DNA from: Acutalibacteraceae bacterium
GTDB taxonomy: Bacteria > Bacillota > Clostridia > Oscillospirales > Acutalibacteraceae
Assembly (NCBI GenBank): GCA_045628495.1
Contig: JAZQPL010000072.1
Span: 41,118-105,117, forward strand
Length of the DNA stretch: 64,000 bases
Direction: 5' to 3'
The translations under genes were made by a program, and so were the position numbers. Shown here piece by piece: positions 13,602 through 32,962 of this stretch (positions are counted from its first letter, which is position 1; every line of letters begins with the position of its first letter). The notes under the pieces are model-generated. The model had not been told where the DNA came from. It ran no database searches and saw nothing but the letters and a program-made list of their open reading frames with translations.

Positions 13602-13852
13602 TTTTCTCACCTGTTACATTATAATTGCTTTTGTAGGCTCAGTCAACTTAAAGAATATGCCGAAAAATAATAAAAATTTTTTTCACAGCTATTGACTTTA
13701 CTGCTTGATTTATGTTAGGATAAGGTACAAGTCTAATAATGTCAATGTGTATAGGTGCGCCCTTTTTTAGTTTTACTGTTTTTTACACAGTAAATTGCGT
13801 ACTGCACAAAATATACAATTAAACTTAGTCCACATAACAGAGAGGGTTGCTT

Positions 13853-14596
13853 ATGGAACAGAAAAAGAAAACCGGAACAGGCGGAAAGCTCAGAGCAATA
13901 GAGCTTGAATACCAGCCGGTGTTTGATATCCATCTCAATATGGCAATTGATTATGAAATATCTATGAGAATAAACGACAGGGTTATGGGTGTTATGCTTC
14001 AGGATTTGTTTATTCCCATTGCAGAAAAATCAAATCAGATTTGCCAGCTGGGTCTTTGGGCAATCGAAGAGTGCTGTGAAGCTATTAAGCGCTGCGAAGC
14101 AAGAGAGGCAGACATAAATTCCTGCATAGTATGGATTTCTATTAAACATATCGCAAAGAAGAACTTTGTTCCGTCTGTTATGAAAATCCTTAATAAATAT
14201 GATGTTAAGCCTGAAAGATTTTGCTTCAACATAAATGAAAGCATTCTTGAAGCTGTGAAAGATCAGGTTTTTGATAATTTCACTCAGCTGAGAGAGCTCG
14301 GGTTTAAGATATCTATTGACGATTTAGGACTTGAATATACATCACTGAGCAATCTCAGCCATTATGATGTGGATTATTTCGGTATTCATTCATCCCTTAT
14401 TGAGGACATTATGGAAAGCGAAAAAACCCAGAATATGATTCAGGGACTTATTGATTTCTGCAAGAAGATTGAAGTCGAAACAAGAGTTGGCGGAGTTGAT
14501 ACTCAGGAAAAGGCGGATCTTCTTAAGAAAATGGGTGTTGACCAGCTTAAAGGTCCGTTTTACGGAAAACCGATTTCAGAAAAATCAATAGTATAA
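13853..14596 (+). CDS. stand-alone EAL-domain protein, apparently degenerate
   Basis: EAL-fold landmarks are present (LEYQPVF, FIPIAE, NINES, SIDDLGLEYTSL, KGPFYGKP). Several catalytic positions look substituted in my by-eye alignment (see findings). AGAGGG lies 6 nt before ATG 13853. The stop is 18 nt before the next gene. Confidence 0.65.
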   Translation: MEQKKKTGTGGKLRAIELEYQPVFDIHLNMAIDYEISMRINDRVMGVMLQDLFIPIAEKSNQICQLGLWAIEECCEAIKRCEAREADINSCIVWISIKHIAKKNFVPSVMKILNKYDVKPERFCFNINESILEAVKDQVFDNFTQLRELGFKISIDDLGLEYTSLSNLSHYDVDYFGIHSSLIEDIMESEKTQNMIQGLIDFCKKIEVETRVGGVDTQEKADLLKKMGVDQLKGPFYGKPISEKSIV

Positions 14597-15555: not shown

Positions 15556-16509
15556 ATGAAAAAGACAATCAAAAAACGCGCTTTTGTATCTGCGATTGCT
15601 ATGCTTATTGTTTCAGCTATCGTTCTTACATCATCGACATTTGCATGGTTTTCAATGAGTAAAGTTGCAACTGTTGATAGCATGGAACTTAATGTTTCAT
15701 CACCTGAAGGCGTTCAGATTTCAGCAAACGCAAATGCATGGACAGCAAATCTTACTTCTGATGATTTGTTCAATGCAAAATCAACAAGTCGTTATAAGGC
15801 TTATGAGAACAATATCAACCTTTTAGCGTCAACACTTGTTCCTGTTTCATCTTGCTTTAACTATTTCACAAACGGTTTCCCGAATTTCTTTAAAGCAACT
15901 CTTGATGATAAAAAATATGCAACAGTAACAGCAGTTAATCAGGTTGCCGGAGCAGCTGACAGTGCAGGCCTTGTTGCATTTGACCTTTTCTTTAAGGTAG
16001 CACAGGAAACAAGAGTATATTTCTATGACAAGAACAACAAAGCTCAGGGTTCAACATTTACAGATACTTCAACATCCGGAATTCTTACAGCTCTCAGATG
16101 TGCATTCGTTCCTATGGGTACCACTCAGAGCTCAGTTGCAGCAGATGCTATTGCTCTTAAGAATTCAGATCGTAGTACTTGTATCCTCTTTGAACCTGAC
16201 GGAACAAACCGTTGCACCGAGTTAAAAGAAAAAGGTGCAGGTTCAGGATATGTTGCTACAAACGGTATTGCAAGTACGGGCGCAGCAGGTACAGTAAATG
16301 ATAGTTTTGTTCTTAACAACGGTGCTACCGAAGCACCCAGAGGTATTAAGGTTAACGAGACATCTTCAAGAACAGAAACATCTTTTGTACTTCCCGGCGG
16401 CGTTTCAAAGGTTAGAGTTTATATCTGGGTAGAAGGCAACGATATCGACTGCCAGAACTCAGTTGCAGGCTCAGTTCTTCAGGTAGCTCTTAAATTCACA
16501 ATTGATTAA
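15556..16509 (+). CDS. secreted protein with SipW-type signal peptide; putative TasA-superfamily major fibre subunit 1
   Basis: Strong RBS (GGAGGT). N-terminus is MKKTIKKRAFVSAIAMLIVSAIVLTSSTFAWFSMSK, comparable with TasA ..GGGTWAAFND and CalY ..GGGTFAYFSD. It aligns over its full length with the next gene and is followed by a GC-rich hairpin. Confidence 0.6.
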   Translation: MKKTIKKRAFVSAIAMLIVSAIVLTSSTFAWFSMSKVATVDSMELNVSSPEGVQISANANAWTANLTSDDLFNAKSTSRYKAYENNINLLASTLVPVSSCFNYFTNGFPNFFKATLDDKKYATVTAVNQVAGAADSAGLVAFDLFFKVAQETRVYFYDKNNKAQGSTFTDTSTSGILTALRCAFVPMGTTQSSVAADAIALKNSDRSTCILFEPDGTNRCTELKEKGAGSGYVATNGIASTGAAGTVNDSFVLNNGATEAPRGIKVNETSSRTETSFVLPGGVSKVRVYIWVEGNDIDCQNSVAGSVLQVALKFTID

Positions 16510-16609
16510 TTTAAGAACATATTAATAACTTAATAACGCATTTAATCTTTAATCATACTTAATTTCAATTCGGTAGTTGCTCTGCCGTATTGAGAACCTC
16601 GTCGCTTAT

Positions 16610-16638
16610 GAGGGCGGCGTAATCGGAACACCGCCCTC
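16610..16638 (+). terminator. GC-rich hairpin (attenuator/terminator or mRNA stabiliser) after subunit gene 1
   Basis: GAGGGCGG-13 nt-CCGCCCTC is a perfect 8-bp stem. There is only a weak T tract afterwards (TGCATTTCC), so termination is probably partial. Confidence 0.4.
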
Positions 16639-16664
16639 TGCATTTCCTCTCTCAGCTGTAAGGG

Positions 16665-16700
16665 TGATTTAAGAGTATATGCGATATACTTTTAATTGAC
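16665..16700 (+). promoter_or_regulatory. conserved AT-rich palindromic element, copy 1
   Basis: TGATTTAAGAGTATAT-gcga-TATACTTTTAATTGAC. It shares 16 + 11 + 4 identical positions with copy 2 at 17846-17882, and only the centre differs. Confidence 0.45.
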
Positions 16701-16832
16701 CTTTACAGTGAAAAAATAAGGTCAACCCAAAAAGAGAGCAGGTATTTTACAAAAGATACTTATTCCGGGTTACCGGCTAAGTATAAAGCGTTTTACGCAA
16801 ATCCGGCAAATTTTAGTAATGGAGATGAAGTC

Positions 16833-17774
16833 ATGAGAAGAAAAAGCAAAAAGCGTGCCTTTATAACCTCTATGGTTATGCTCCTCGTTTCTGCAATCGT
16901 TCTTACAAGTTCAACTTTTGCATGGTTCGTTATGGGCGATAAAGGCGTAATCGAAGAAATGGATGTTAAACTCTATGCTTCAGAAGGCTTCCAGATTTCT
17001 GCCAACGCTACTGACCCGAGCTGGAGACAGAACCTTACATTGGATAATCTTTTCAACACTGATGCTTCAACATCAGATGCTACTTATGATGCGTATGCAG
17101 GAAACAGAAATATGCTTCCCGAATATCTTATTCCCGCATCAAGCAGCTTTAATAACTTTGGTGATTACGGTTATCCTAATTTCTACTGTCTTAAAGTTGA
17201 TGCTGAAGGTGCAGTTGACGCAAGCAAAATCATAGAAGCATCAGGTAGTGCAGATGAAGCAGGAATCGTAGCATTCGATGTATTCTTCAAGTCCGGTGCG
17301 GCTCAGAAAATTGATTTCAGCAGCACAGAAGTTAAAGAAATCGGCGAAGAATCACAGAATGTACTTTCATGTATCAGATATGCATTTGTTCCTATGGGAA
17401 CAGTTGAAGAAGGTACAGAAGCAGCTACAATCCAGCAGCTCAGCAATGCAAGCGCTGCAAAGGTTGTAATTACAGAAGCTGATTCCAAGGGCCATTCTGT
17501 AGAAGGCGCAAAGAATCCTTCACAGGCTACAGTACCTGTTAACAGCACAGAAGTAGGCACTGCAGATACAGATATGTACATAGTTAAGAGCGGTACAGCA
17601 CTTCCCACCGGTACTGTTTACACAAGTGATGCAGCTAACAAGACATTTGAGCTTGGCGCAGGCATTACAAAGGTAAGAGTATATATTTGGGCAGAAGGTA
17701 ACGATGTTGACTGCCGTGACAGTATTTCAAGCTCTGAACTTTCAGTTGCTTTCAAATTCACAGTAGCTGACTAA
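16833..17774 (+). CDS. secreted protein with SipW-type signal peptide; putative TasA-superfamily major fibre subunit 2 (paralog of 15556-16509)
   Basis: N-terminus MRRKSKKRAFITSMVMLLVSAIVLTSSTFAWFVMGDK. Blocks shared with the paralog include GFQISANA, IVAFDVFFK, YAFVPMGT and KVRVYIWAEGNDVDC. Confidence 0.6.
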   Translation: MRRKSKKRAFITSMVMLLVSAIVLTSSTFAWFVMGDKGVIEEMDVKLYASEGFQISANATDPSWRQNLTLDNLFNTDASTSDATYDAYAGNRNMLPEYLIPASSSFNNFGDYGYPNFYCLKVDAEGAVDASKIIEASGSADEAGIVAFDVFFKSGAAQKIDFSSTEVKEIGEESQNVLSCIRYAFVPMGTVEEGTEAATIQQLSNASAAKVVITEADSKGHSVEGAKNPSQATVPVNSTEVGTADTDMYIVKSGTALPTGTVYTSDAANKTFELGAGITKVRVYIWAEGNDVDCRDSISSSELSVAFKFTVAD

Positions 17775-17882: not shown

Positions 17883-17923
17883 TTTTCGGTCAAAAGTTTT
17901 ACAAAATAAAGGTGGATACTATT

Positions 17924-18676
17924 ATGGAGAAAAAAGGCAAAAGCATACTCGGAGTTGTTTCGGATATTTTACTGATTATCATTTTAATTATTGCAATTAT
18001 GATAACGGTAATGACATTTACATCAAAAAACTCCGATACAGGATTGGGTAATTTGTTCGGATACATTCCGTTTTCTGTTCAGACTGATTCAATGAACCCC
18101 ACAATCAGAGAAGGCGATTTGATTATTTCAAAAGCTATAACCGTTGACGAAGCCCGTAACGGCGAAGTTCTCAAAGTCGGTGATGTAATTACTTATTCTG
18201 CAATTATTTCAAACGAAGACGGTACTGCACAGAGAGATTATAATACACATAGAATTGTAGATATCAAGCGTGGAAAAGACGGTAAGGTTGAATACTACTA
18301 CACAAAGGGTGACGGTGTAAGCACAGAAGATAGTTTCCCTATTGTACCTGACGAAGTTATTGCAAAGCAGGTTGGTGCTTCAGCCGATATAGGACCTGAT
18401 AAGAGTGCCGAAAACATTAAAAAAGGTTTCGGTATCAGCGGATTAGGTAAAGCTCTCGGTTTCCTTCAGACTCAGCTGGGATTTATGGTTTGCATAATTA
18501 TTCCTTTGGCCCTGTTCTTTATCTGGCAGGTATATAAACTTATTTCTATGTTTATGTCTGCTAAATCAGAGGATTCAACTGACGATATTAAGCGTAAGGC
18601 TATTGAAGAATATCTTGCTCAGCAGGAAGCAGAAAAGAAAAAAGCGGAAAATGATTCAAATTCCGATAAATCATAA
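17924..18676 (+). CDS. signal peptidase I, ER/archaeal (SipW) type, paralog 1, with C-terminal TM and charged tail
   Basis: N-terminal TM, then VQTDSMNPTIREGDLII (catalytic Ser), YNTHRIVDI (catalytic His of the Ser-His dyad) and TKGDG. AAAGGTGG lies 8 nt before ATG 17924. Confidence 0.75.
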   Translation: MEKKGKSILGVVSDILLIIILIIAIMITVMTFTSKNSDTGLGNLFGYIPFSVQTDSMNPTIREGDLIISKAITVDEARNGEVLKVGDVITYSAIISNEDGTAQRDYNTHRIVDIKRGKDGKVEYYYTKGDGVSTEDSFPIVPDEVIAKQVGASADIGPDKSAENIKKGFGISGLGKALGFLQTQLGFMVCIIIPLALFFIWQVYKLISMFMSAKSEDSTDDIKRKAIEEYLAQQEAEKKKAENDSNSDKS

Positions 18677-18721: not shown

Positions 18722-20269
18722 ATGACAGTAACAGCATTTATTTCAGAGTTCTTAAATCAGTTTTTTGTACAAGGCCTGTTCGGGATTTTCAAAGGAATCG
18801 GCATGGGAATATTCAATATGTTCAATATCCCCAGATATATTGATATATTTAAGAACAATTCAGAAAACTTTACAGCAACAGACTGGATTCTCGCAATTCT
18901 TACAGTAATTGCCACAATAGCTATTCTTGCAGTAATTGTAATTCTTGTTGTTGTTCTTGTTAAAAAATATCTGAGAGTTCGCAAGACTCTTGTTGACCAG
19001 GAAGAACTTCTTAACGAAGTTGCAAACCTTAACAGAGAAATTATCAAGCTTTCATCTGAAAAAGAAAGAATTCTTGCAATGAAAGTTTCTCAGCTTGGCT
19101 TGAAGCCCGGTGAAAGCCCCTTCGTTGAACAGGAAGAAAAAGACGAAGAAGAGAAGAAAGACGACGAAGTAGATATGACTGCAGACGATTACAGCCGTTT
19201 CTACAAATGTACACAGGTTGACCTCGAAATCGGCGATTATGTTGCCCCCGAGTTTGATAACGAAATTACTCTTCCCGAAATTTGCGACAGATTCCGCAAT
19301 TTCGCCTGCTCTCAGTTAGGTCTTTTCTATGAGCCGAAGCTTATCAGACTTTTCCTTTCAGCATTTGCTACAACAAGACTTATTATTTTACAGGGTATTT
19401 CCGGTACAGGTAAAACATCACTTGCTTATGCATGGGGTAAATTCCTTCGTAATCCCGCAACAATCGCATCAGTTCAGCCTTCCTGGCGTGACCGTACTGA
19501 AATTTTCGGTTATTTCAACGAATTTACAAAGCGTGTTAATGAAACAGAAGTTCTCAAGAAAATGTATGAAGCTACATATAAAGAAGAAATATTCATTACT
19601 GTTCTTGACGAAATGAACATTGCCCGTGTTGAGTATTACTTTGCAGAGCTTCTTTCAATTCTTGAAATGCCTACAAGAGATGAATGGGTTGTATCACTTG
19701 TTCCCAGCGTTTGGCCTACAGACCCCAAGCATCTGTTTGACGGAAAGCTCAGACTTCCTGAAAATATGTGGTACATCGGCACAATCAATAACGACGACTC
19801 AACATTCGCCGTATCAGATAAGGTTTATGACCGAGCTATTCCGATAGATATTAACAGTAAAGGTAAATTCTTTGAAGCTCCCTATACAGAATGGCTTCCT
19901 CTCAGCTACAAGCATCTTGAAGAAATGTTCAGAGAATGCCAGGAAATTCATAAGGTTTCAGAAGAAAACCTTCGCAAGCTTGAAGAACTTGATGACTATG
20001 TTATTGAACACTTCCGTCTTGCTTTCGGTAACCGTATTGTTAAGCAGCTTAAAGAATTTGTTCCTGCATATGTTGGATGCGGCGGAACTGAAATTGACGG
20101 TATTGACTTTGTTCTTTGCCATAAGATTCTCCGTAAATTTGAAAGCTTGAATCTTTCATTTATCCGTGACGAAATTGACGGACTTATTACATATCTTAAC
20201 AAACATTTCGGTAAATCAAACATGATGGAATCAAAAGAGTATCTCTTAAGACTCCAGAAGCTTATGTAA
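18722..20269 (+). CDS. membrane-anchored McrB-like AAA+ NTPase
   Basis: Hydrophobic N-terminus with a TM at aa ~54-80 (nt 18881-18961), followed by KKYLRVRK and then a coiled-coil/acidic linker. Walker A is LQGISGTGKTS (nt 19394-19417). Walker B and sensor are ITVLDEMNIARVEYYFAELLSILE (nt 19601 onward). IGTINNDDSTFAVSDKVYDRA matches the McrB-family GT(M/V)N..D.S...D.A..RR pattern. Confidence 0.65.
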   Translation: MTVTAFISEFLNQFFVQGLFGIFKGIGMGIFNMFNIPRYIDIFKNNSENFTATDWILAILTVIATIAILAVIVILVVVLVKKYLRVRKTLVDQEELLNEVANLNREIIKLSSEKERILAMKVSQLGLKPGESPFVEQEEKDEEEKKDDEVDMTADDYSRFYKCTQVDLEIGDYVAPEFDNEITLPEICDRFRNFACSQLGLFYEPKLIRLFLSAFATTRLIILQGISGTGKTSLAYAWGKFLRNPATIASVQPSWRDRTEIFGYFNEFTKRVNETEVLKKMYEATYKEEIFITVLDEMNIARVEYYFAELLSILEMPTRDEWVVSLVPSVWPTDPKHLFDGKLRLPENMWYIGTINNDDSTFAVSDKVYDRAIPIDINSKGKFFEAPYTEWLPLSYKHLEEMFRECQEIHKVSEENLRKLEELDDYVIEHFRLAFGNRIVKQLKEFVPAYVGCGGTEIDGIDFVLCHKILRKFESLNLSFIRDEIDGLITYLNKHFGKSNMMESKEYLLRLQKLM

Positions 20270-20311: not shown

Positions 20312-22471
20312 GTGCAGATGGATAAATCATATCTTGAATTATTTTTAGAATATAAAAACAGCATGGATGCTCTCACAACTGATAATCAGTTCTATGATAA
20401 TATGACTGATATCGTTGAAAGAGGTAAGTCAAATTATTCTTTGTTTAATCGCTATTTTGAGAAGAAAATTGACTTAACATGGGTTGAGGAAATCGAAGCG
20501 TGCATTATTCCGTTAGATAATATCATCCGTGTTCCCCGTAAATTTATTATTCAGGAAGAAGAAATTGTTCCTATTGAAAGAGCAAAGAAAATTACTGCTG
20601 AGTCAGTTCGCCATCTTGCACAGCATACAAATATGATTGCAAAAGTTGAGGGTGACGATGTTACACCCAACGAAATTCTTAATGTTTTCAGAGAAGAAAG
20701 CTTTGAGGTTTATGAAAATCGTTTTGTATTTACACTTATGCAAAACCTTATCAGATTTATTGATGTAAGATATAATGTTCTATTCAGTCTTTCAGATGAT
20801 GAAAATATGGCATCACTGAAAATGGAAAACGAAACATACCGTGGAAATGAAAAAATAACATATAAACTTGAAATTTCCGCTCAGTCAGGCGGTAATGATT
20901 TGGAGGATACCGCAAATATTGACGGTGAAAACGCATCTGCATTCCAGAGAATTGAGCGTATTAAAAAGATTATTAACGAATATGCTCATTCAGGATTTAT
21001 GAAAGAACTTCAAGGCTGCGTTCCCGTTCGTCCTCCGATTATGAGAACAAACGCTATCCAAAAAAATCCGAATTTCAGAGCATGTCTTAAACTGTGGCAG
21101 TTTATTCAGTCATACAGAGATGTCGGTTATGAAATTATCGCAAAAGAATCAAATGAAATGGTCAGCGATGAGTATAAAACAGAGCTTAACCGTATCATTG
21201 CCACAAACTATATGCTTCTTAAAAATAATTCAATATCGGAAGACTCATTGGGCAAGCGTGCTAAGATGAGAAAGCTTAAACCGAAGCTTCTTAAAAGACT
21301 CGCTGAAGAGCTTGTTTTGGATTATGATATGGAAGAGGTTGAGATTAAGCGCATTTTCGTCGATGAAGTTAAAAGAGTTTCCAAGCGTAAACTTGAAGGC
21401 GAAAAGAGAATTAAAGATGCTATTGACAGAGCTATTGCATCTGAAAACGCAAGAAAGAAAGCTATTGAAGATAAAATTAAAGCAAAAATTGCTCATGAAA
21501 AAGAGATGGAACGCCGTCGCATAGAGCGTGAAAAAGCAAGAATCGCAAGAGAGAAAGCTGCTGAGAAAGCTCGCAAAGAGAAAGAAAGAGCAAGACTCAA
21601 AGCTAAGAAAGAAAGAGAACTTGCACTTGCGAAAGAAAAAGCACGCAAAGAAAAAGAAAAGGCACGCCTTGCGAAGGAGAAAGCAGCAAAGCTTGCACAG
21701 ATTGCAAAAGAAAAAGAACAGGCAAGAATTGCTAAAGAAAAAGCCCGCAAAGAAAAAGAGCTGGCTCTCAAGCTTGAAAAAGAACGCAAAGCTAAAGAAA
21801 GAATTCGACTTGCCAAAGAAAAAGCTGCTCAGCTTGAAAGAGAACGCAGGGAAAAGGAAAAAGAAAAAGCCCGCCTTGCCAAAGAGAAAGCTGCTCAGCT
21901 TGAAAGAGAACGCAAGGAAAAGGAAAAAGAAAAAGCCCGCCTTGCCAAAGAGAAAGAAAGAGAGCGTCTTGCAGCTCAGAAAGCAGCTCAGCTTGAAAAA
22001 GAAAAGGCTGCAAGAGAAAGAGCGAAAGAAAAAGAACGCCTTGCTAAAGAGAAAGCTGCGCTTGCAGAAAAAGAAAGAGCTGCTAAAGCTAAGGCAAAAG
22101 AGAAAGAAAGAATTGCCGCTGAAAAAGCAAAACAGCTTGAAAGAGAAAAAATTGCAAAAGAAAAGGCAAGAGAAAAAGAACGCCTTGCTAAGGAAAAAGC
22201 CGCTCTTGCAGAAAAAGAGCGCATAGCTAAGGCAAAGGAAAAGGAAAAAGAAAGAATTGCCAGAGAAAAAGCAAAGCAGATTGAAAAAAATCGAATTGCT
22301 AAAGAAAAAGCAAAGGAAAAAGAACGCCTTGCTAAAGAAAGAGAAAAACAGCGTGAAAAAGAACGCATAGAAAAAGCAAAACAGCGTGAAAAAGATAAAA
22401 TAGCAAGAGAAAAAGCTGCTAAGGCAGCAAAAGCAAATGCTAAGAAATCAAATTCAGCAGAAGAACAGTAA
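20312..22471 (+). CDS. McrC-like N-terminal domain protein lacking a nuclease domain, fused to a long E/K/R-rich helical repeat region
   Basis: The first ~340 aa are globular. The helix FREESFEVYENRFVFTLMQNLIRFI resembles the conserved ..(D/E)T.(E/A)NR(F/I)(I/V)K..L motif I recall from McrC/DUF2357 N-domains. I see no PD-(D/E)xK motif. From aa ~355 to ~710 the sequence is almost only E, K, R and A with some L, I and Q. GTG start is preceded by AAAGGGG. Confidence 0.5.
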   Translation: MQMDKSYLELFLEYKNSMDALTTDNQFYDNMTDIVERGKSNYSLFNRYFEKKIDLTWVEEIEACIIPLDNIIRVPRKFIIQEEEIVPIERAKKITAESVRHLAQHTNMIAKVEGDDVTPNEILNVFREESFEVYENRFVFTLMQNLIRFIDVRYNVLFSLSDDENMASLKMENETYRGNEKITYKLEISAQSGGNDLEDTANIDGENASAFQRIERIKKIINEYAHSGFMKELQGCVPVRPPIMRTNAIQKNPNFRACLKLWQFIQSYRDVGYEIIAKESNEMVSDEYKTELNRIIATNYMLLKNNSISEDSLGKRAKMRKLKPKLLKRLAEELVLDYDMEEVEIKRIFVDEVKRVSKRKLEGEKRIKDAIDRAIASENARKKAIEDKIKAKIAHEKEMERRRIEREKARIAREKAAEKARKEKERARLKAKKERELALAKEKARKEKEKARLAKEKAAKLAQIAKEKEQARIAKEKARKEKELALKLEKERKAKERIRLAKEKAAQLERERREKEKEKARLAKEKAAQLERERKEKEKEKARLAKEKERERLAAQKAAQLEKEKAARERAKEKERLAKEKAALAEKERAAKAKAKEKERIAAEKAKQLEREKIAKEKAREKERLAKEKAALAEKERIAKAKEKEKERIAREKAKQIEKNRIAKEKAKEKERLAKEREKQREKERIEKAKQREKDKIAREKAAKAAKANAKKSNSAEEQ
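21374..22441 (+). repeat. purine-rich coding tandem-repeat tract (E/K/R/A repeats)
   Basis: A 66-bp unit at 21824-21889 is repeated at 21890-21955 with one mismatch (cagg/caag). A ~48-aa unit (AKEKERLAKEKAALAEKER.AKAK.KEKERIA.EKAKQ.E...IAKEK) recurs downstream. Low complexity creates spurious ORFs in other frames and on the opposite strand. Confidence 0.85.
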
Positions 22472-22510: not shown

Positions 22511-22539
22511 AGATTTGAACCGGCGTGGAGGTTATTAAG

Positions 22540-25500
22540 ATGAAGAAAAGATTTATTGAAAGGGTACTGGTATTGATGTTATCAATGGCAGTATTGTTAT
22601 CGTCAACAGGGGCATACTCTGCATTTGCAGTATCTAAAAACGGTTTTATGTCCTTTTCTGCAATTAAATCTTCATCATCTGCTGCAAAAAATGAGCAGGA
22701 GACCACGACTCCTGAGTCTGATTCTGTTGAACCTAATCTTGTAAGCGACGGCGGAACAGTTGAGGCTGTTAAGCTTAACGGAAAAGGTACTGCTGAAAAT
22801 CCTTATATTGTTTCAAATGCAGATGAATTATTTGCAATGCAGAGTGTTGCAAATGATTCAACCTCAGGCGATAAGTATTTTGTTCTTACTAAAGATATAG
22901 ATTTATCCGGTGTCAGCTATTCTGAAATGAATGACAATTCTGTTCTTCCGGGAACAATAGTTTCAGTTGATAAAGCAGTGTGCAATGCTGCTCCTGATGA
23001 AGCTAAATTTATACTTGAAGGCAACAATCATAAGATTTTCGGACTTAATATTACAAATAACGGTTCCTCGGCGGTGGGTATTTTCGGTTATATCAGCCCT
23101 AAATCAGTTATTAAAAATGTTGTATTCGAAGATATCAGTGTAAATGTTTCATACAGCGGTTCTGTTTCTTCATCAGTTATTGCCGTATGCAACAACGGTG
23201 AAATCAGCGGATGCACTGTTAAAAATGTTGCATTGAATATCAGCGCTTCAGCTAACGGCGGCGTTAGTTCCAAGACTGTAGGCAAGCTTAAAATTAAAAA
23301 TTCAACAGGACTTATCGGCAGAAATAACGGTAAAATCTGTGATATGGATATCAGCAAAGTAACTGTTGATATCAGTGCAGGCAAGGATACTATTGCTGTT
23401 GTTTCCGGTATGAATTCCGGTACAATATCAAATATTACAGTAAATAAATCATCTGTTAAGGCTGTTAAATCAGACAATATCGGCGGCGTTGCCGGTAAAA
23501 ACAGCGGTAAAATAGAGTCTGCAACAGTTAACGGAATAAAAATTAAGGTTGACAAAAAGGCAGTTTGCGGCGGTATTGTCGGTGAAAACTCGGGAATAAT
23601 TGATTCTTGTGTTGTTTCCGGCTCCGTTACCGGTTCATCATATTCAGGCGGAATAGCAGGTTATGCCGTTTCGGAAAGCAAGTCAACTGTAAAGAATTGC
23701 TATTCACTTGCAGGTGTTTCAGCTAATAATGAAACAGGTGCAGTTATAGCCGCAGGTAAATCAGTTACAAGCGGTAATGTCTGGTCATCGGATATCAGCG
23801 GTAGAATCATGGCTTATGAAAACGGTTCTGTTGACGGAAAGTTTAACCGTGAAAACAAGCTGATTGTTGTACGCAACGGCCAGAGTGAGATTTTAAGCAA
23901 AGCATCACTTTCAGGAAGCTTTGCAGGTTTAACATATTCTCTTGACACATCAAAGGATATAGCTTTTGACGGCGAAGGAATTACATTCAGTGAAGATGAA
24001 AACAGTATTGTGATTACCGCAGATTCCGCAGACAAAACCGGAAAAATAACATATACATCAAAAGTTTCAGTTCAGGCAGGATGTAACGGATTATCTGAAA
24101 TTGATGTTAAGTTTAATACAGTAGTGCTCACTGTTCCGGAAGGAACTGCAGGCGATGGACTTACAGAAGCATCAGCTCTTGAAATTAAAAACAGTGCAGA
24201 ACTTTCAATGATTAAGTCTGCTCCTTTTGCAAATTATATTCTTTCAAAAGATGTTACAATGTCTGAGTCCTGGGATTCCTCAATTTCATTTACAGGAACA
24301 TTGAACGGCAACGGTAACACAATCAAGGCAAGAAAAAATCTGTTTAAGTTTACTAACGGCAAAGTTTATAACCTTAATGTTGTTCTTTGCGCATCAATAA
24401 AAACTGCTGTGTTCGGCAATGCATATAATGCAAAGTTCTCAAAAGTAAAACTTTCTGCACAAAAGAGTGAAGATGGTTTTATCGGTCTTAAAACTGATAA
24501 GAGTAACACAGCAACATTTATAAATACTGCAAGAGGAAATATAACAATCAGCAACTGCTTTACAAGCGTGCCCGTAAATGTAAACGGCTCAGGACTTAAA
24601 AATATTGCAGGCTTTATTGCTGTGCTTGATACTGATAATGCAGTAATATCATCCAGCGGTTCTCTTACATCAATTACTGTTAAAGACGGTTGTAAGATTT
24701 CATCAAGTGCCGCATTTATCGCATCTGCCGACGGAAATAAGAATGGCAAAATCAATGATTGCTATGCAACACTCTATTCCGATGATGTTAAAAATATTCT
24801 TATTGCATCGGGAGACAGCAGTATTAAAATGACTGATTCAGTTTTCAGTTCATCATCATCAAAAGCTGTTGCCGCTCCGAAAAAATTTGTTAATATAGAA
24901 GGCAAAAAGTGGGCGTTTGAATCAGGCGAATTCGGCTTTGTTTCTGCAGAGGGAAGCGTTGTTTCAATAGCAATCCCCGTTAATGTAATAAAGGGCGCAA
25001 GTGCGGATGATTTCAAAGTAATGTTTGATTCGGAAGTGCTTAAGGTGAATTCCGAAAAGCTGACAGTTAAAGACAATGTTCTTAATATTCCCGTTGAGGC
25101 GGCAAAGCCCGGAGTTACAATTAAGAACAGTGCACTTGTTGTTACACATAAGGGAACGGGTCTCAGAGCAGAAATAAGTCTTTCAAACGGACTTGAAAAA
25201 GATAAAGACGGTAACTATATAATTAACTGCGGAGCAGATTTCCTGTTTATTAACAATGACTTTGACAATTTCTGTGATAAAAGCTTTATCCTTTCCGGAA
25301 ATATTGATATGTCAGGCATTGATTTTTCAACAATCGGCGGCGCTTCCGGTAAATTTACCGGAAAGCTGGACGGTAACGGATATACCGTTAAAGGTCTTAA
25401 AATCAACGGAACTGCTAAAGCAGGATTATTCGGAACTGTTGACGGTGCAAAAATAGTTAATATTTACTTTGAAGATGCGGTTGTTAATGCATCAAATGAT

Positions 25501-28500
25501 TACGCAGGTGTGCTTGCCGCTCAGATTACGGGAAATACAACAATTAAAGCGGTAAACTTCAAAAACTGCAGTGTAATCAGCACCGGTAATTATGCAGGTA
25601 TTGCAGCCGGCGAAACAGACGGCATAAAACTTTACGGAATTTCAGTGGAAAATTCATCTGTTAAGGCTCTTAATTATGCCGGATTTGTTGTAGGAAAAGC
25701 TGAAAATTCAGAAATTAAAAACATAAGTGCCAAAAATGTTAAAGCATCCGGCGAAAACAATATCGGACTTTTCGGCTGCACGGAAAATTCAAAGCTTGAA
25801 AAAATAGCTGTTAACAACGGCATTGTATCAGGCGGTAAATTTGTCGGAGGAATTTCAGGCTCGGCAGAAGAATCAGAAATATCAAATGTTAAAGTAAACG
25901 GTACAACGGTCAGCGCGGCTGCGGATGTTATGGCTTCTGCTCCTGTTGCAGGCGGTGTATGCGGTTTCTTAAGCGGAAAGCTCAACGGAGCAGTTGTTAA
26001 GTCACTTGAAGTGAAATCATCCGGCAGTTCTGCTGTTGCCGGCGGTGTTGCAGGTATAACAGAAAATGCCGAAATCAGCAACGCTGAGGTATATGGTGAT
26101 GTTAAAGTTTCAGCTTATGTTGTCGGCGGTATAATCGGCGAAGCTGAAAATAATACATCAGTTTATAATTCAAAATCACTTGCAGCTGTTTGTGGAAGCG
26201 ATACACAGTTAAGAGTTGTAACAGGCGCAGGCGGAGTTATCGGCCGTGTAAAGGCAGACGATTTTGCAACAGTTAAAATCAGCAAGGTTAATGTTTCTGG
26301 TAAAATTACCGCTGTTGATTCTGTGGGCGGAATTATCGGTTCGGTTATTTCCGAAAAAGCAGACGGTGTAAGCGTTAAAGATTGTGTATGTGCCGCAGAG
26401 ATAGTTGTTACATCAGATAACGGAATGAAAATATCCGGCTGCATAATAGGCAATGTAACAGAGCTTAAATCAGATGCTCTGGAAAAATCAGTTGAAGGTA
26501 TCGTATATTCTTCATACGGTTCAGGCCTTAATGCAATCGGCACAGCAGATGTTAAATCAGGATATTACGATGCTGATAAAGCTGTTAAAGCTGTGGTACC
26601 TGATTTAATTAAAACAAGAGCGGAAAATAAAATATCTGTTTCAACAGGAGATATTAAAAAATACGGTTTTGTATTTGACAGTGATAAAGGTTGGCAGTCT
26701 GAATCGGCAAAGAGAATCGTTGTTGTTGATTCTTCAGAGAATCAGGTTAAAATCAAGGCAGTAAGATCAGGCAATGTCGGAATAGCTGCGGAGTACAAAC
26801 TTTCTGCCGATAAAGATATAGTAATTAAGGTTCACTTTAATGTTAAATCTGAAATAGCAACAACTCTCAAAGGCGAAGGAACAAAATCAAATCCTTATGT
26901 AATCAATAATGCTTTTGATTTGGAAAATGTATCATATTATTCAGGCGAGAACAGTTGCTTTGTTTTGAATAACGATATTAAGTTCAGCGCAGATGCCTTT
27001 AAGTTCAGCGGAGATTTTTATAACGAAGGATGCGGATTTACTCCCATTGGTTCGAAAGAAAATCCGTTTAACGGAAAGTTTGACGGTAACGGTCATAAAA
27101 TAAGCGGACTGTGTGTTAACAGTGAAGACGGTGCGCTTTTCGGATATGCTTCGGATGCTGAAATTAAAAATGTTACTGTTGAAAAAGCAACAATAACAGG
27201 AAACAATTCTGCGGCGGCAGTAGTTGCCCGTCTTGTGGATTCTGAAATCACCAATGTATTTGTTACAGGATGCAATGTTGTTGCAACTGATGTTGAAGGA
27301 AGTGCTTCTGCGGTTGTTGCTTATGCAAAAAACAGTAAAATTGAAAATGTTAATGTAGAATCTGCAGAAATTACAGCTTGTCCTGCTGAATTTAAGGAAA
27401 AAAATGCAAGCGCAGGTGCAGTTTGTGCAAGAGTAACTGATGTTACTGTAAATAAAGTTACAGTTAACGGCGCAGATGTTGTTTCGAACGGTTTTGCAGG
27501 CGGATTTATAGGATATTGCGATAATGCGATTATCAGCAATTCAAAAACAGTTGCTGAAATCAAGGGCAATATTGCAGGCGCAGTTTCAGCGGATACTGCA
27601 GGAAAGCTTACAGCAGAAAATATTGTTGCAGGCGGAACGGTTTACGGTCATGAACTTGCGGCAGGTCTTTCAGCAAAATCTGATGCTCCTGTTGTATGTA
27701 AAAATGTAATTATCTCCGCTAAAGTAAAAGGTGAAGGCGTTTCCGCTGTTGTTACGGCGAAGGCAGATGAATCAATATTTACTGATTCTGCCGATAGTGA
27801 AGTTGTTCTTGAAAACATTGTTTATTCAAGTTATCAGAATAACCTCAAACCTTTCGGAGATAAAAAAATAAATATGTTCCAGAGCGCTGATTATGTCGGA
27901 AATGTTTACGATGCGAATGTTGCAGAAGTAAAAGAGGGCAATAGCCTTGTAATCGGAAAAGACAAGACAGATGTTTTCGGTTCAATTAAATCCGAATTCG
28001 ATTTCAGCAAGTTTGTTTGTGAAAATATTTACAGTGTTCCCGAAGGACTTGTGAAATATAATAAAGCAGATAATACGGTTACTGCAGCGGGCACAAATGT
28101 TGACGGCGCTCAGCTTGTTATCAGATTTGATAACGGCATTGAAATAGCAGTACCTATGGTAAGCGTTGTCGGACTTACAGGCAACGGTTCTGATGTTTCC
28201 CCGTTTGTTGTTAATTCTGAAGACACACTTAAACTTCTCAAGGTATATCCTGAATCAAACTTTAAGATGTCAGGTGATGTTGAACTTAAAAATGTCTGGA
28301 CTCCGGTTGAAAACTTCAGCGGAAAATTTGACGGAAACGGATACACAATATCAGGCCTTAATATTAAAGCGGACAATGCAGGTTTATTTAATACTGTTTC
28401 AGGAAAAGCGGTTATTAAGAATATATCCTTTACAGACGCAGTTATTGAAGGTAAAGCTTCAGCAGGTGTTCTTGCGGCAAATGTTTCGGAAGATGCGCAG

Positions 28501-31175: not shown

Positions 31176-31823
31176 ATGAAAAAAAAGCCTGAAAAAGAAG
31201 TAAATCCAAAGGTTGAAAAAATCAAGAATATAATTAAAAGAATTTTGTCTGTTATTGCAGCTGTTTCTTTCGTTTTGGGACTTGTAATTTTTATTTCGGT
31301 TTTAAGAGCTAATAACGGTGAAGTGCCGAATATATTCGGTTTCAGTGTTATGAGAGTACAGACAGGAAGTATGGAACCGGAGCTGAGAGTCGGAAGCATT
31401 GTAATAACAAGGCATGTTCCTCAGGAAGAAATTTCCGTAGGAGACATTATAAGCTTTTACTCTATTGATCCGGGATTGAATAATCAGGTGGAAACTCACA
31501 GAATTGTGGAAGAGCATTATGTCGGTAAGGAAAGAGAGTACATTACAAAAGGTGATGCAAACCAGGCGGATGACAGTTATCCTGTTATTTACAGAAATGT
31601 AATAGGTAAGGTTATCGGGAATTTGGGAGTTGCATCCGGCTCAGTAATAGGTATTCTTCAGAACAAGAATGTTATTTTATTTTTAATTATTATACCGCTG
31701 GTATTTATTACTTTTTCTGAAGCGGTAAATCTTGTAAATCTGGTTATAGAAAGCAGAAAAACAGCGAAGGAAGAAAATTCAGATGAATCCGAAAATGAAA
31801 AGAAAAACAAAAGTTCTGATTAG
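31176..31823 (+). CDS. signal peptidase I, SipW type, paralog 2
   Basis: VQTGSMEPELRVGSIVI, VETHRIVEE and TKGDANQADD, with N- and C-terminal TMs and an acidic tail. Confidence 0.75.
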   Translation: MKKKPEKEVNPKVEKIKNIIKRILSVIAAVSFVLGLVIFISVLRANNGEVPNIFGFSVMRVQTGSMEPELRVGSIVITRHVPQEEISVGDIISFYSIDPGLNNQVETHRIVEEHYVGKEREYITKGDANQADDSYPVIYRNVIGKVIGNLGVASGSVIGILQNKNVILFLIIIPLVFITFSEAVNLVNLVIESRKTAKEENSDESENEKKNKSSD

Positions 31824-32292
31824 TTCAGTTTTAATCTGTATTCTTTCTTTTTTGCTGATGATAATATATATACCTAAAATTATGGGTTATCAATCGTTTT
31901 ATATTCAGTCAGGCAGTATGTCACCGTCTATTCCCAAGGGAAGCTATGTTTTTGTAAAAAGAGCAGAGTTTGAAAAAATAAGTGTCGGTGATGTGGTTAC
32001 TTTCAGGAACAACGAAGAAACAGAATTTTTCACTCATCGGGTAGTTGATATTGATGCTACCAACAAAATGTTTACAACTAAAGGCGATGCGAATAAAGAA
32101 AACGACCCTTCGGAAACGAGCTACTATTTTGCAGTAGGAAGGGTGGATTTTTCTATACCGGTTGTAGGCTATATTGCCGAGTTTTTTAATAAAACAGTAG
32201 GTAAGGTTGTTTTAGCAAGTGTATATATCGCATGGATTGCGATTGAGATAGAATTTATCGTTATGAAGCGAAAAGCTCCTCAGGAGGATTAG
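31783..32292 (+). CDS. signal peptidase I, SipW type, paralog 3
   Basis: IQSGSMSPSIPKGSYVFV, FFTHRVVDI and TKGDANKEND. It overlaps the previous gene by 41 nt (alternative ATG at 31795). Confidence 0.75.
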   Translation: MNPKMKRKTKVLISSVLICILSFLLMIIYIPKIMGYQSFYIQSGSMSPSIPKGSYVFVKRAEFEKISVGDVVTFRNNEETEFFTHRVVDIDATNKMFTTKGDANKENDPSETSYYFAVGRVDFSIPVVGYIAEFFNKTVGKVVLASVYIAWIAIEIEFIVMKRKAPQED

Positions 32293-32293
32293 T

Positions 32294-32959
32294 ATGAAGA
32301 AAAGGATTATTGCCGTTATAGCATCTCTTGCAGTGGTTATCGGACTTATGTCAAGCCAAAGCTCATATGCGTGGTTTGTAACATCAGTTAAGAGAGCGCA
32401 AAATATAAATATTGCCGTTGTTAATTACGATAGCGAAACTGAACTGCTCGGCACGGATGAGGCAGATTTTTACGGCAGAGCGTGTATTCTTCCGGGGCAG
32501 AATCTTGTTCTGGTTAATGATAAAGACGCAAAGCTGACAATGAACAATAATTCTTCTATTGATACTCAGATAAGAGTAAAAATTGAATATACAAGTTATT
32601 CCTCAGGTTCTGCAAAAACGGTTACATATTCAGGCAGCGGGGAAGATGACCTTGTTGTTGAGTTCGTAAATCCGTCACAGTGGCTTCCTTATGATAACGG
32701 AATGGACGGAACATATTTCTATTATGTCGGACCGGATAATAAATCCGCAAAGTTAACTGATATTGATAATGTGTATTCAATAACACCCTCAGTTCCAAGT
32801 GTTGATATTGTAAAATCCGTTTCGTACAGAGAAAATATTGATACCTCACTTTACACGGGCAACGAAGTAACTGTTAATATTATTTTTGAAGCAAAACAGG
32901 CAGATTATGTAGGCTGGAGCGCATTAGGTCAGTATCAGGTTAATTCGGGTATCAACTAA
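32294..32959 (+). CDS. small secreted protein with SipW-type signal peptide (putative minor fibre subunit 2)
   Basis: GGAGG RBS. N-terminus is MKKRIIAVIASLAVVIGLMSSQSSYAWFVTSVK. It starts 1 nt after the stop of paralog-3 peptidase. Confidence 0.55.
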   Translation: MKKRIIAVIASLAVVIGLMSSQSSYAWFVTSVKRAQNINIAVVNYDSETELLGTDEADFYGRACILPGQNLVLVNDKDAKLTMNNNSSIDTQIRVKIEYTSYSSGSAKTVTYSGSGEDDLVVEFVNPSQWLPYDNGMDGTYFYYVGPDNKSAKLTDIDNVYSITPSVPSVDIVKSVSYRENIDTSLYTGNEVTVNIIFEAKQADYVGWSALGQYQVNSGIN

Positions 32960-32962
32960 GTT

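What the first reader, a model, noticed from the sequence alone, without database searches (positions are those of the whole stretch)
21374..22441. A ~350-residue E/K/R/A tract: predicted single alpha-helix 'ruler' encoded by recently duplicated repeats
From about aa 355 to 710 of the McrC-like protein the sequence is almost exclusively E, K, R and A, with some L, I and Q, in i/i+4 charge patterns (e.g. KEKEKARLAKEKAAQLERERREKEKEKARLAKEK). This composition is typical of ER/K single alpha-helix (SAH) domains, or alternatively of coiled coils.

If it forms one continuous helix, then at the standard 0.15 nm rise per residue it would span on the order of 50 nm.

At the DNA level a 66-bp unit is duplicated back-to-back with a single mismatch (21824-21889 and 21890-21955). 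A ~144-bp unit also recurs. This points to recent expansion and probable length polymorphism or assembly-collapse risk. A cytoplasmic rigid spacer attached to an AAA+ activator is unusual.
Basis: partly seen in the sequence, partly recalled or inferred. Interest (0 to 1): 0.7.

Follow-up and report, generated by a model that had tools for sequence, protein, structure and literature searches.

The report
Long charged helical tail on McrC-like protein
The roughly 360-residue Glu/Lys/Arg/Ala tract is real, but it is the usual tail of the McrC-like subunit of a "CoCoPALM" system, a relative of the McrBC restriction enzyme that sits in a gut-Clostridia surface-fibre operon; the class has been named but never studied, and whether the tail is a single helix or a coiled coil remains open.

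Summary
Residues 355-710 of the 719-aa ORF at 20312..22471 are 82% E/K/R/A. A 66-bp unit is duplicated with one mismatch, and a 144-bp unit recurs.

- The protein is a DUF2357 (McrC N-terminal) protein with no nuclease domain. It lies directly downstream of a membrane-anchored McrB-like GTPase.
- The pair sits in a conserved operon: EAL protein, SipW-class secreted proteins, SipW, McrB-like, McrC-like, giant secreted protein. This matches the CoCoPALM class that Bell et al. (eLife 2024) named in one paragraph and did not analyse.
- The tail is not a recent or unusual expansion. In 75 related species it has a median length of 368 aa (IQR 346-390); here it is 367 aa. The composition is constant and the 72/144-bp unit is shared. 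Only the 66-bp duplication is recent.
- Close relatives differ by indels of 11, 22, 24, 48 and 96 aa.
- There is no heptad, hendecad or amphipathic pattern, so a canonical coiled coil is not supported.
- It is also not a classic ER/K single helix. Opposite charges at i/i+4 are not enriched, Ala is 21%, the net charge is +63, and an approximate SAH score is 0.18, against 0.52 for myosin VI.

Most likely it is an extended, semi-flexible charged helical stalk that replaced the nuclease domain. It is a new member of a known, uncharacterised kind.

The parts
20312..22471 (+). Complete ORF, 719 aa: the McrC-like (DUF2357) protein with a long charged helical tail and no nuclease domain
20312..21331 (+). 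N-terminal globular domain (aa 1-340), DUF2357 / McrC N-terminal type
   Evidence: Pfam PF09823 E=1.1e-9 at aa 67-159. AF2 with 53 sequences gives pLDDT 78 and a mixed alpha / long beta-hairpin fold. 40 invariant columns. No PDB sequence or fold match. No detectable similarity to E. coli McrC itself
21335..21511 (+). Conserved, more hydrophobic 'neck' helix (aa 342-400) with I/V/A at i, i+4, i+8 spacing
   Evidence: Gap-free and well conserved among relatives. AF2 helix 342-415 with pLDDT about 82-85. Mean hydrophobic moment 0.33 versus 0.24 for the tract
21512..22447 (+). Repetitive E/K/R/A tract (aa 401-712), net basic, with no Gly or Pro
21824..21955 (+). Recent tandem duplication of a 66-bp (22-aa) unit with one mismatch at 21849/21915
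   Evidence: The unit is a 2-residue-shorter derivative of the family's 24-aa unit
21969..22416 (+). Older 144-bp (48-aa, i.e. 2 x 24-aa) repeat array, 2.6-3.0 copies, 77-80% identical
   Evidence: The same 72/144-bp period is the best tandem repeat in most of the 75 related tails
22448..22468 (+). Short polar/acidic C-terminal tip (SNSAEEQ)
   Evidence: Relatives likewise end in short acidic/polar tips, some with a longer DDDVFxIxDAIGIFKLDE motif
18722..20269 (+). Partner: McrB-like GTPase, 515 aa, with N-terminal hydrophobic/TM segments, a heptad coiled coil (aa ~85-135) and an acidic linker
   Evidence: hhalign versus E. coli McrB: prob 97%, E=7.8e-11. Walker A GISGTGKTS, Walker B LDEMN, signature NNDD. 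NCBIfam McrB 1.5e-7 and weak FtsL hit. PADLOC PDC-M26A 2.6e-36. a/d occupancy 0.64. Present in 79/80 related loci
17912..18676 (+). SipW-type signal peptidase I
   Evidence: NCBIfam SipW 1.1e-18; TIGR02228 above its cut-off. Present in 75/80 loci
15556..17774 (+). Two paralogous secreted proteins (317 and 313 aa) with SipW-class signal peptides ending in SSTFAWF; putative fibre subunits
   Evidence: Present in 62-64/80 loci
13847..14596 (+). EAL-domain protein at the head of the conserved cluster
   Evidence: Pfam EAL 1.8e-46. Present in 66/80 loci, matching the 66 with at least 6 kb of upstream flank
22525..30564 (+). Giant 2679-aa secreted protein immediately downstream
   Evidence: N-terminal part conserved in 67/80 loci
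31176..33484 (+). Three further S26/SipW-like peptidase genes (31176-31823, 31783-32292, 32963-33484), with a small secreted protein between the last two

Best explanation

Shown here:
- The protein has a DUF2357 N-domain and no PD-(D/E)xK nuclease.
- It is encoded directly after a membrane-anchored McrB-type GTPase.
- Both genes lie inside a conserved operon of SipW peptidases, SipW-class secreted proteins, an EAL protein and a giant surface protein.
- In this subclade the tail keeps its length (about 350-390 aa) and composition, while whole repeat units of 11/22/24/48 aa are gained and lost.

Inferred:
- By analogy with E. coli McrBC, the DUF2357 domain docks into the ring of the membrane-tethered GTPase and stimulates it.
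- The nuclease has been replaced by a proline-free, almost glycine-free charged alpha-helix that projects from the ring into the cytoplasm.
- The tract has no heptad, hendecad or amphipathic pattern and only 11% large hydrophobic residues. It therefore most likely behaves as an extended, largely monomeric, semi-flexible helix: SAH-like, but Ala-rich and strongly basic. The contour length would be about 54 nm and the r.m.s. reach about 34 nm.
- It would act as a spacer or tether. It is not a rigid ruler and not a canonical coiled coil.
- What it reaches is unknown: another ring, a polyanion such as nucleic acid or an anionic membrane surface, or a partner that binds its C-terminal tip.
For: Identity and context:
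- Pfam DUF2357.
- McrB homology of the upstream gene.
- Synteny in L001-L004 and in 80 GTDB loci: McrB-like 79/80, SipW 75/80, EAL 66/80, giant protein 67/80, all on the same strand.
- No +strand terminator-like site between 13.8 and 30.3 kb.
- Published definition of CoCoPALM (PMC11090510).

Helix:
- 96.4% strong helix formers, 1 Gly, 0 Pro.
- AF2 predicts helices 342-415, 440-576 and 615-718.

Not a coiled coil and not amphipathic:
- Hydrophobic Fourier power at periods 3.5/3.6/3.67/3.75 gives z=0.1/0.5/0.4/-0.4.
- Best-register a/d occupancy is 0.26, against 0.25 for shuffles and 0.57 for tropomyosin.
- Hydrophobic moment is not above shuffles at 90-103 degrees.

SAH-like features:
- Like charges are avoided at i+3 (z=-5.3) and E-to-K at i+3 is enriched (z=4.3); the net pair score has z=4.0.

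Selection on length and composition:
- 75 complete tails have median 368 aa and IQR 346-390. K+R is 0.35-0.40 and A is 0.2-0.27 across relatives whose N-domains are 45-94% identical.
- Indels among close relatives are whole units.
- In the wider family, 108 of 142 representatives carry a charged tract of at least 50 aa.
Against: - The density of potential salt bridges (0.42 per residue) is less than half that of the myosin VI SAH (0.92). My approximate SAH score is 0.18, below the 0.25 cut-off.
- A net charge of +63 should destabilise a free helix at low ionic strength.
- AF2 breaks the helix at 416-439 and 577-614 with pLDDT below 50.
- A distant clade of the same family has a clear pentadecad hydrophobic periodicity (3.75, z=10.5). 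Genuine coiled coils therefore exist in homologous tails, and Bell et al. call these regions coiled coils.
- No experiment exists for any CoCoPALM component.
- The N-domain shows no detectable similarity to E. coli McrC itself. The docking and stimulation step therefore rests on the Pfam family assignment and gene adjacency alone.
Confidence: 0.5

Rival explanations
1. The tail is a true coiled coil, parallel or antiparallel and possibly non-heptad. It would dimerise two McrC-like subunits and so bridge two GTPase rings, taking over the dimerisation role that the nuclease domain has in E. coli McrBC.
For: - Bell et al. describe coiled-coil domains on both the McrB and the McrC homologues of CoCoPALM.
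- The distant clade's tail has a strong 15/4 hydrophobic periodicity.
- The conserved neck (aa 342-400) is more amphipathic.
- AF2 splits the tail into three long helices that could pack together.
- The McrB-like N-terminus is itself a heptad coiled coil.
Against: - In this protein there is no 3.5/3.67/3.75 periodicity.
- a/d occupancy equals that of shuffled sequence.
- Only about 2-3 large hydrophobic residues occur per 24-aa unit.
- The net charge of +63 per chain would strongly oppose homodimerisation.
- Highly charged helices are commonly misidentified as coiled coils (PMC5347031).
Confidence: 0.22
2. The tract is chiefly a polyanion-binding element. This basic, helix-prone region would bind nucleic acid or the anionic inner-leaflet surface, perhaps folding on binding, and so tether the GTPase complex to the nucleoid, ribosomes or membrane.
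For: - Net charge is +63, spread evenly at +3 to +6 per 24 aa.
- Net positive charge of +0.12 to +0.17 per residue is conserved in all 75 related tails.
- The tail replaces a nucleic-acid-directed nuclease domain.
- SAH-type helices are enriched in RNA-binding proteins (PMC5812594).
Against: - Other clades with the same operon have neutral or acidic tails: net -0.07 to +0.01 in the P0063-P0112 clade, and a broad spread across the wider family. Positive charge is therefore not essential to the system.
- No face of the helix is enriched in K/R (Fourier z<1 near period 3.6).
- There is no amphipathicity that would support membrane insertion.
Confidence: 0.2
3. The tract is a functionally neutral low-complexity expansion, or an assembly artefact such as a collapsed or chimeric repeat.
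For: - There is a near-perfect 66-bp duplication.
- Short-read metagenome versions of close homologues are often truncated or frameshifted at the tract, e.g. P0001, P0002, P0005.
- The exact protein is absent from the public collection.
Against: - The reading frame is open for 1.1 kb.
- The length of 367 aa equals the median of 75 independent assemblies.
- Composition and both flanking segments are conserved, and indels are always in frame and span whole units.
- Codon usage matches the N-domain.
Confidence: 0.04

Closest known systems
[quoted passage not shown]
   Same: - McrB-type GTPase with an N-terminal TM plus coiled-coil (FtsB/FtsL-like) module.
- Adjacent DUF2357 McrC homologue without a nuclease domain.
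- Helical extensions on both proteins.
- Signal-peptidase genes in the operon.
- Found in Bacillota.
   Different: No architectural difference was found. The published description is a single paragraph with no analysis of the tail.

New observations here:
- The tail in this subclade shows no heptad or hendecad pattern.
- Its length is conserved at about 370 aa.
- It is net basic here but neutral or acidic in other clades.
- The NNDD signature aligns without a gap to E. coli NTAD, so the 'NxD' reading is not forced.
ER/K single alpha-helix (SAH) domains of myosin VI/X, caldesmon and others (PMC5347031, PMC5812594)
   Same: - Highly charged E/K/R-rich helix-forming sequence with no hydrophobic seam.
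- Often mislabelled as coiled coil.
- Serves as a spacer between domains.
   Different: - Only 62% of residues are charged, with K+R about twice E+D.
- Ala is 21%.
- i/i+4 pairs are not enriched.
- Pair density is less than half that of myosin VI.
- At 360 residues it far exceeds the typical 40-200, so it would be semi-flexible.
- It is bacterial and ends in a short tip rather than linking two globular domains.
TolA domain II of E. coli and other gamma-proteobacteria (PMC12204202, PMC3477136)
   Same: - Long bacterial K/A/E-rich alpha-helical spacer attached to a membrane-anchored energy-transducing complex.
- Encoded by an in-frame tandem-repeat tract whose copy number varies between strains.
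   Different: - TolA domain II is periplasmic and links a TM helix to a globular C-terminal domain. The tail here is cytoplasmic with a free end.
- TolA domain II is 110-335 aa (median 192) and variable in length. This subclade's tail is about 370 aa and tightly distributed.
- There is no homology between them.
E. coli McrC (EcoKMcrBC)
   Same: It is the partner encoded directly downstream of an McrB-type GTPase. By family assignment (DUF2357) it is expected to dock in and stimulate the ring.
   Different: - There is no PD-(D/E)xK nuclease domain.
- Profile comparison finds no sequence similarity to E. coli McrC (prob 0.3%).
- The genomic context is a cell-surface fibre operon, not a restriction locus.

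Membership tests
CoCoPALM (McrBC-derived, pilus-assembly-linked) | McrB-type GTPase domain in the adjacent gene | tested here: met
   hhalign versus E. coli McrB: prob 97%, E=7.8e-11, 182 columns covering Walker A, Walker B and the signature motif. NCBIfam McrB E=1.5e-7.
CoCoPALM (McrBC-derived, pilus-assembly-linked) | GTPase fused to an FtsB-like transmembrane plus coiled-coil N-terminus | tested here: met
   Hydrophobic segments at aa ~5-33 and 55-81, followed by KKYLRVRK. Heptad a/d occupancy 0.64 at aa 85-140. Weak FtsL-family hits: NCBIfam 0.0071 and Pfam FtsL_2 0.052.
CoCoPALM (McrBC-derived, pilus-assembly-linked) | NxD rather than NxxD GTPase signature | tested here: inconclusive
   The motif is an invariant N-N-D-D. 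It fits NxD followed by D, but it aligns without a gap to E. coli N-T-A-D.
CoCoPALM (McrBC-derived, pilus-assembly-linked) | Associated signal-peptidase family genes | tested here: met
   Four S26/SipW-type genes in the window. A SipW homologue is present in 75/80 related loci.
CoCoPALM (McrBC-derived, pilus-assembly-linked) | Coiled-coil or long helical domains on both the McrB and the McrC homologue | tested here: met
   McrB-like coiled coil. McrC-like tail of 360 aa predicted helical. Whether the latter is a true coiled coil is a separate question; see the coiled-coil rows.
McrC family | DUF2357 / McrC N-terminal domain | tested here: met
   PF09823 E=1.1e-9, 38.3 bits against a 23.3 cut-off. 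It is precomputed in most homologues. There is no similarity to E. coli McrC itself.
McrC family | C-terminal PD-(D/E)xK nuclease domain | tested here: not met
   No Pfam, NCBIfam or PADLOC nuclease hit. Everything after aa ~340 is the helical tract. AF2 shows no nuclease-like alpha/beta core.
ER/K single alpha-helix (SAH) | Sequence dominated by E, K and R with no hydrophobic seam | tested here: met
   62% of residues are charged and 11% are large hydrophobics. No periodicity at 3.5-3.75.
ER/K single alpha-helix (SAH) | Dense network of opposite charges at i/i+3 and i/i+4, giving a predictor score above threshold | tested here: not met
   i+4 pairs are not enriched (z=-1.6 and +1.4). Pair density is 0.42 per residue against 0.92 for myosin VI. 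The approximate Waggawagga-like score is 0.18 (maximum 0.23) against a 0.25 cut-off.
ER/K single alpha-helix (SAH) | Monomeric, highly helical in solution, with non-cooperative melting | not testable with these tools
   Requires CD and AUC or SEC-MALS on the recombinant segment.
Canonical coiled coil | Heptad (or hendecad/pentadecad) repeat of hydrophobic core positions | tested here: not met
   Fourier z<=0.5 at periods 3.5, 3.6, 3.67 and 3.75. a/d occupancy is 0.26, equal to shuffles. The feature is met in a distant clade's tail (3.75, z=10.5).
Canonical coiled coil | Self-association into two or more strands | not testable with these tools
   No multimer prediction or experiment is available.

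The most novel reading that the evidence does not exclude
The tail would be a genuinely monomeric charged helix of about 54 nm contour length. That is roughly twice the length of the longest natural SAHs described (40-200 residues). Its length would be held near 370 residues by selection even though its repeats turn over. It would work as a cytoplasmic tether or spring that couples a membrane-anchored, McrB-derived GTPase ring to the secretion or assembly of SipW-dependent surface fibres. This would be a non-defence exaptation of a restriction enzyme, with the nuclease swapped for a molecular spacer.
Probability: 0.2. Interest if true: 0.75.

Novelty: new member of a known kind. Interest (0 to 1): 0.42.

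Why it matters
CoCoPALM systems are widespread in gut Oscillospirales. The class has only been named; no component has been studied experimentally.

If the McrB/McrC-derived pair really drives or regulates assembly of SipW-dependent surface fibres, it is an example of a restriction-enzyme motor recruited to cell-envelope biogenesis. The tail is the part that replaced the nuclease. Knowing whether it is a single helix, a coiled coil or a polyanion binder therefore bears directly on what the machine acts upon.

The length conservation found here, alongside repeat turnover, suggests a measurable distance requirement. It could be tested by shortening or lengthening the array.

As a sequence feature on its own, the tract is the expected tail of its family and is not an anomaly.

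Tried and rejected
- PDB sequence searches with the N-domain profile and with the tail found nothing.
- Foldseek against the PDB, with both the N-domain model and the full-length model, found nothing at E<=0.001.
- Profile comparison of the N-domain with E. coli McrC showed no similarity.
- Exact-sequence look-ups of both proteins found neither on record.
- The PADLOC hit of the tail protein to PglX (E=0.017) was dismissed as noise.
- A membrane-binding amphipathic helix or 11-mer lipid-binding repeat was rejected. The hydrophobic moment is not above shuffles at any helical angle, and there is no 3.67 periodicity.
- Ribosome-slippage or phase-variable poly-A was rejected. The longest A run is 7.
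- The alternative-frame and antisense ORFs inside the tract (21528-22226 +, 21493-21816 -, 21988-22368 -) are low-complexity shadows. The main frame is the one conserved in homologues.
- The published Waggawagga scoring matrices could not be retrieved because the supplement is not held. Only an approximate score was computed.
- A search for a follow-up CoCoPALM paper found none.
- The C. perfringens sipW-bsa paper mentions McrB only in the part of its figures-and-tables section that lists strains and plasmids.
Full report
**What is there**

The finding lies inside a 719-aa ORF at 20312..22471 on the + strand. Nucleotides 21374-22441 are exactly residues 355-710.

- Residues 353-712 are K 26%, E 21%, A 21%, R 14%, L 6%, I 5% and Q 3%.
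- There is one glycine and no proline. 96.4% of residues belong to the eight best helix formers, and the net charge is +63.
- No other 60-residue window in any frame of the 64-kb window reaches 75% E/K/R/A.
- At the DNA level, 21824-21889 and 21890-21955 differ at a single base, 21849 G versus 21915 A.
- Tandem Repeats Finder also reports a 144-bp unit at 2.6-3.0 copies and 77-80% identity over 21969-22416.

The one exception is the stated 'i/i+4 charge pattern'. Opposite charges at i+4 are no more frequent than in shuffles (z=-1.6 and +1.4). The non-random features are E/D to K/R at i+3 (z=+4.3) and avoidance of like charges at i+3 (z=-5.3).

**What protein and what system**

The N-terminal 340 residues match Pfam DUF2357, the McrC N-terminal domain (E=1.1e-9, above the gathering score). 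Most of the best-listed database relatives (373 in all) carry the same family.

No nuclease domain is present, since everything after residue ~340 is the tract. The N-domain profile shows no similarity to E. coli McrC itself, nor to any solved structure by sequence or fold. 'McrC-like' therefore rests on the Pfam family and on gene order.

The gene immediately upstream (18722..20269) is a McrB-type GTPase.
- hhalign against E. coli McrB gives 97% probability and E=7.8e-11 across Walker A, Walker B and the signature motif.
- Its N-terminus carries hydrophobic/TM segments followed by a real heptad coiled coil, with a/d occupancy 0.64.
- There are weak FtsL-family hits.

The surrounding genes are:
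- an EAL protein;
- two paralogous secreted proteins whose signal peptides end in SSTFAWF;
- a SipW-type signal peptidase;
- downstream, a 2679-aa secreted protein, three more S26/SipW-like peptidases, and further small proteins with TFAWY/SYAWF/TTAWF signal peptides.

There is no terminator-like site on the + strand between 13.8 and 30.3 kb.

The gene order is conserved in four metagenomic contigs and in 80 species-representative genomes, almost all Acutalibacteraceae or other Oscillospirales gut MAGs. Counts on the same strand at fixed offsets are McrB-like 79/80, SipW 75/80, EAL 66/80 (matching the 66 loci with at least 6 kb of upstream flank) and the N-terminal part of the giant protein 67/80.

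**What is already known**

This architecture is what Bell et al. (eLife 2024, PMC11090510) named CoCoPALM. [quoted passage not shown] The authors deferred analysis to a later paper. I found no such paper in the library.

Four of the five defining features are met here. The fifth, an NxD rather than NxxD signature, is inconclusive. The invariant N-N-D-D fits 'NxD followed by D' but aligns without a gap to E. coli N-T-A-D.

**Is the tail recent, unusual or polymorphic?**

It is not recent and not unusual.
- In 75 complete tails from related species the median length is 368 aa and the IQR is 346-390. The window's tail is 367 aa.
- Composition is nearly constant across relatives whose N-domains are 45-94% identical: K+R 0.35-0.40, E+D 0.19-0.25, A 0.20-0.27, and net charge +0.12 to +0.17 per residue.
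- The 72/144-bp (24/48-aa) unit is the best tandem repeat in most of these tails. A 77-79% identity subclade instead uses multiples of 33 bp.
- The window's 22-aa duplicated unit is a two-residue-shorter derivative of the family's 24-aa unit.

Repeat-number change is real. An alignment with seven close relatives (86-94% identical N-domains) shows in-frame gaps of 11, 22, 24, 48 and 96 residues confined to the middle of the tail. The proximal part (aa 342 to ~500) and the distal part (~650 to 719) are conserved.

A more distant clade has 2-5 copies of an acidic 15-aa repeat among near-identical proteins.

Across the wider family there are 1574 50%-identity clusters at E<=1e-3. Of 142 representatives inspected, 108 carry a charged tract of at least 50 aa, with net charge ranging from basic to acidic.

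The conserved property is therefore a long, charged, helix-prone tail. Its length appears to be set per clade. The sign of its charge is not conserved.

**Single helix or coiled coil?**

For this protein there is no hydrophobic periodicity at period 3.5, 3.6, 3.67 or 3.75 (z=0.1, 0.5, 0.4, -0.4). The significant periods are 4, 6 and 12, which reflect the 12/24-residue repeat.

| Measure | This tract | Shuffled tract | Myosin VI SAH | Tropomyosin | McrB-like N-terminus |
|---|---|---|---|---|---|
| Best-register a/d occupancy, large hydrophobics | 0.26 | 0.25 ± 0.02 | 0.29 | 0.57 | 0.64 |
| Potential i+3/i+4 salt-bridge pairs per residue | 0.42 | 0.36 ± 0.02 | 0.92 | 0.24 | not computed |
| Approximate Waggawagga-style score, 49-residue windows | 0.18 mean, 0.23 max | not computed | 0.52 | 0.08 | not computed |

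The helical hydrophobic moment does not exceed shuffles at any angle from 90 to 103 degrees. A canonical coiled coil and an amphipathic membrane-binding helix are therefore both unsupported.

It is equally not a classic ER/K SAH. The score uses unit weights normalised to EEEEKKK, and the published cut-off for 49-residue windows is 0.25 (PMC5812594).

AlphaFold2 with 29 homologues predicts helices 342-415, 440-576 and 615-718. They are separated by low-confidence breaks at positions that contain no helix breakers. I read these breaks as model compaction, but I could not inspect the coordinates.

The distant acidic clade shows a strong pentadecad periodicity (3.75, z=10.5). True coiled coils therefore occur in homologous tails, and weak or partner-dependent association cannot be excluded here.

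**How it most likely works**

Shown:
- a nuclease-less DUF2357 protein paired with a membrane-anchored McrB-type GTPase in a conserved fibre/secretion operon;
- a proline-free charged tail whose length and composition are conserved.

Inferred:
- The DUF2357 domain docks in and stimulates the GTPase ring, as McrC does in McrBC (as summarised in PMC11090510).
- The tail projects into the cytoplasm as an extended, largely monomeric helix.
- With the ~15 nm persistence length reported for SAHs (PMC5347031), a 54-nm contour gives an r.m.s. end-to-end distance of about 34 nm by the worm-like chain model (my calculation). That makes it a semi-flexible tether, not a rigid ruler.
- Its target is unknown. 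Candidates are a second complex, a polyanion (favoured by the +63 charge, disfavoured by the acidic tails in other clades), or a binder of the short acidic C-terminal tip. Some relatives extend that tip to a DDDVFxIxDAIGIFKLDE motif.

**Verdict**

The feature is the normal tail of a named but uncharacterised family, so it is a new member of a known kind.

The points added here may be useful to whoever studies CoCoPALM:
- absence of any coiled-coil register in this subclade;
- clade-level length conservation despite unit turnover;
- charge-sign variability across clades;
- the ambiguous NxD reading.

I score interest as moderate, at 0.42. The system is intriguing, but the tract itself would not surprise a specialist who knows the CoCoNuT/CoCoPALM work.

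Noticed in passing
window 17912-18676, 31176-31823, 31783-32292, 32963-33484: There are four S26/SipW-type signal peptidase genes in one locus. They accompany at least six small secreted proteins whose signal peptides end in TFAWF, TFAWY, SYAWF, TTAWF or GTLAMF (ORFs at 15556, 16833, 30595, 32294, 33411, 34133). This suggests several dedicated peptidase/substrate pairs for a multi-subunit surface fibre.
   Followed up: partly
window 22525-30564: A giant 2679-aa secreted protein lies directly downstream. Its only Pfam hit is to the M26 peptidase N-terminal region (aa 941-1011). Its N-terminal part is conserved in 67/80 related loci, but its C-terminal part in only 3/80.
   Followed up: partly
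window 13847-14596: An EAL-only (c-di-GMP phosphodiesterase-type) protein heads the conserved cluster. It was found in 66 of the 80 related loci, matching the 66 that have at least 6 kb of upstream flank. This hints at c-di-GMP control of the operon.
   Followed up: partly
L002 9288-11120, L003 7303-9135 (proteins P0063-P0112): A distant clade with the same operon has an acidic or neutral tail built of the 15-aa repeat AEENEESEARVAARI, at 2-5 copies among near-identical proteins. It shows strong 3.75-residue hydrophobic periodicity (z=10.5) and ends in a basic C-terminal motif, GKKxVYRAVRRxPKGD. In both clades the tract and the tip carry opposite charges: an acidic or neutral tract with a basic tip there, and a basic tract with an acidic tip here.
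   Followed up: partly
L079, L080, L083, L084 (C-termini of the DUF2357 proteins): Some basic-tailed homologues end in a conserved acidic-hydrophobic peptide (for example DDDVFGIGDAIGIFKLDE) after the tract. This could be a docking motif.
   Followed up: no
window 18722-20269: The McrB-like GTPase matches the PADLOC phage-defence-candidate model PDC-M26A at E=2.6e-36, although its context here is a surface-fibre operon. It is also more conserved than its McrC-like partner (median 76% versus 67% identity across the 80 loci).
   Followed up: partly
window 21493-21816 (-), 21528-22226 (+), 21988-22368 (-): ORFs of 107-232 aa in other frames and on the opposite strand within the tract are low-complexity shadows (K-rich or S/F/L/A-rich). 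They are not genes.
   Followed up: yes
window 21374-22441: The coding strand is 72.8% purine (A 48.5%) over 1,068 nt, against 52.7% for the whole window. The longest A run is only 7.
   Followed up: yes
window 37097-38824: An RNase Y gene lies about 6 kb downstream of the cluster. In C. perfringens, RNase Y is reported to regulate transcript levels of the sipW-bsaA operon (PMC11580942). Only 1 of the 80 related loci has RNase Y within the 10-kb flank, so no conserved linkage is evident.
   Followed up: partly
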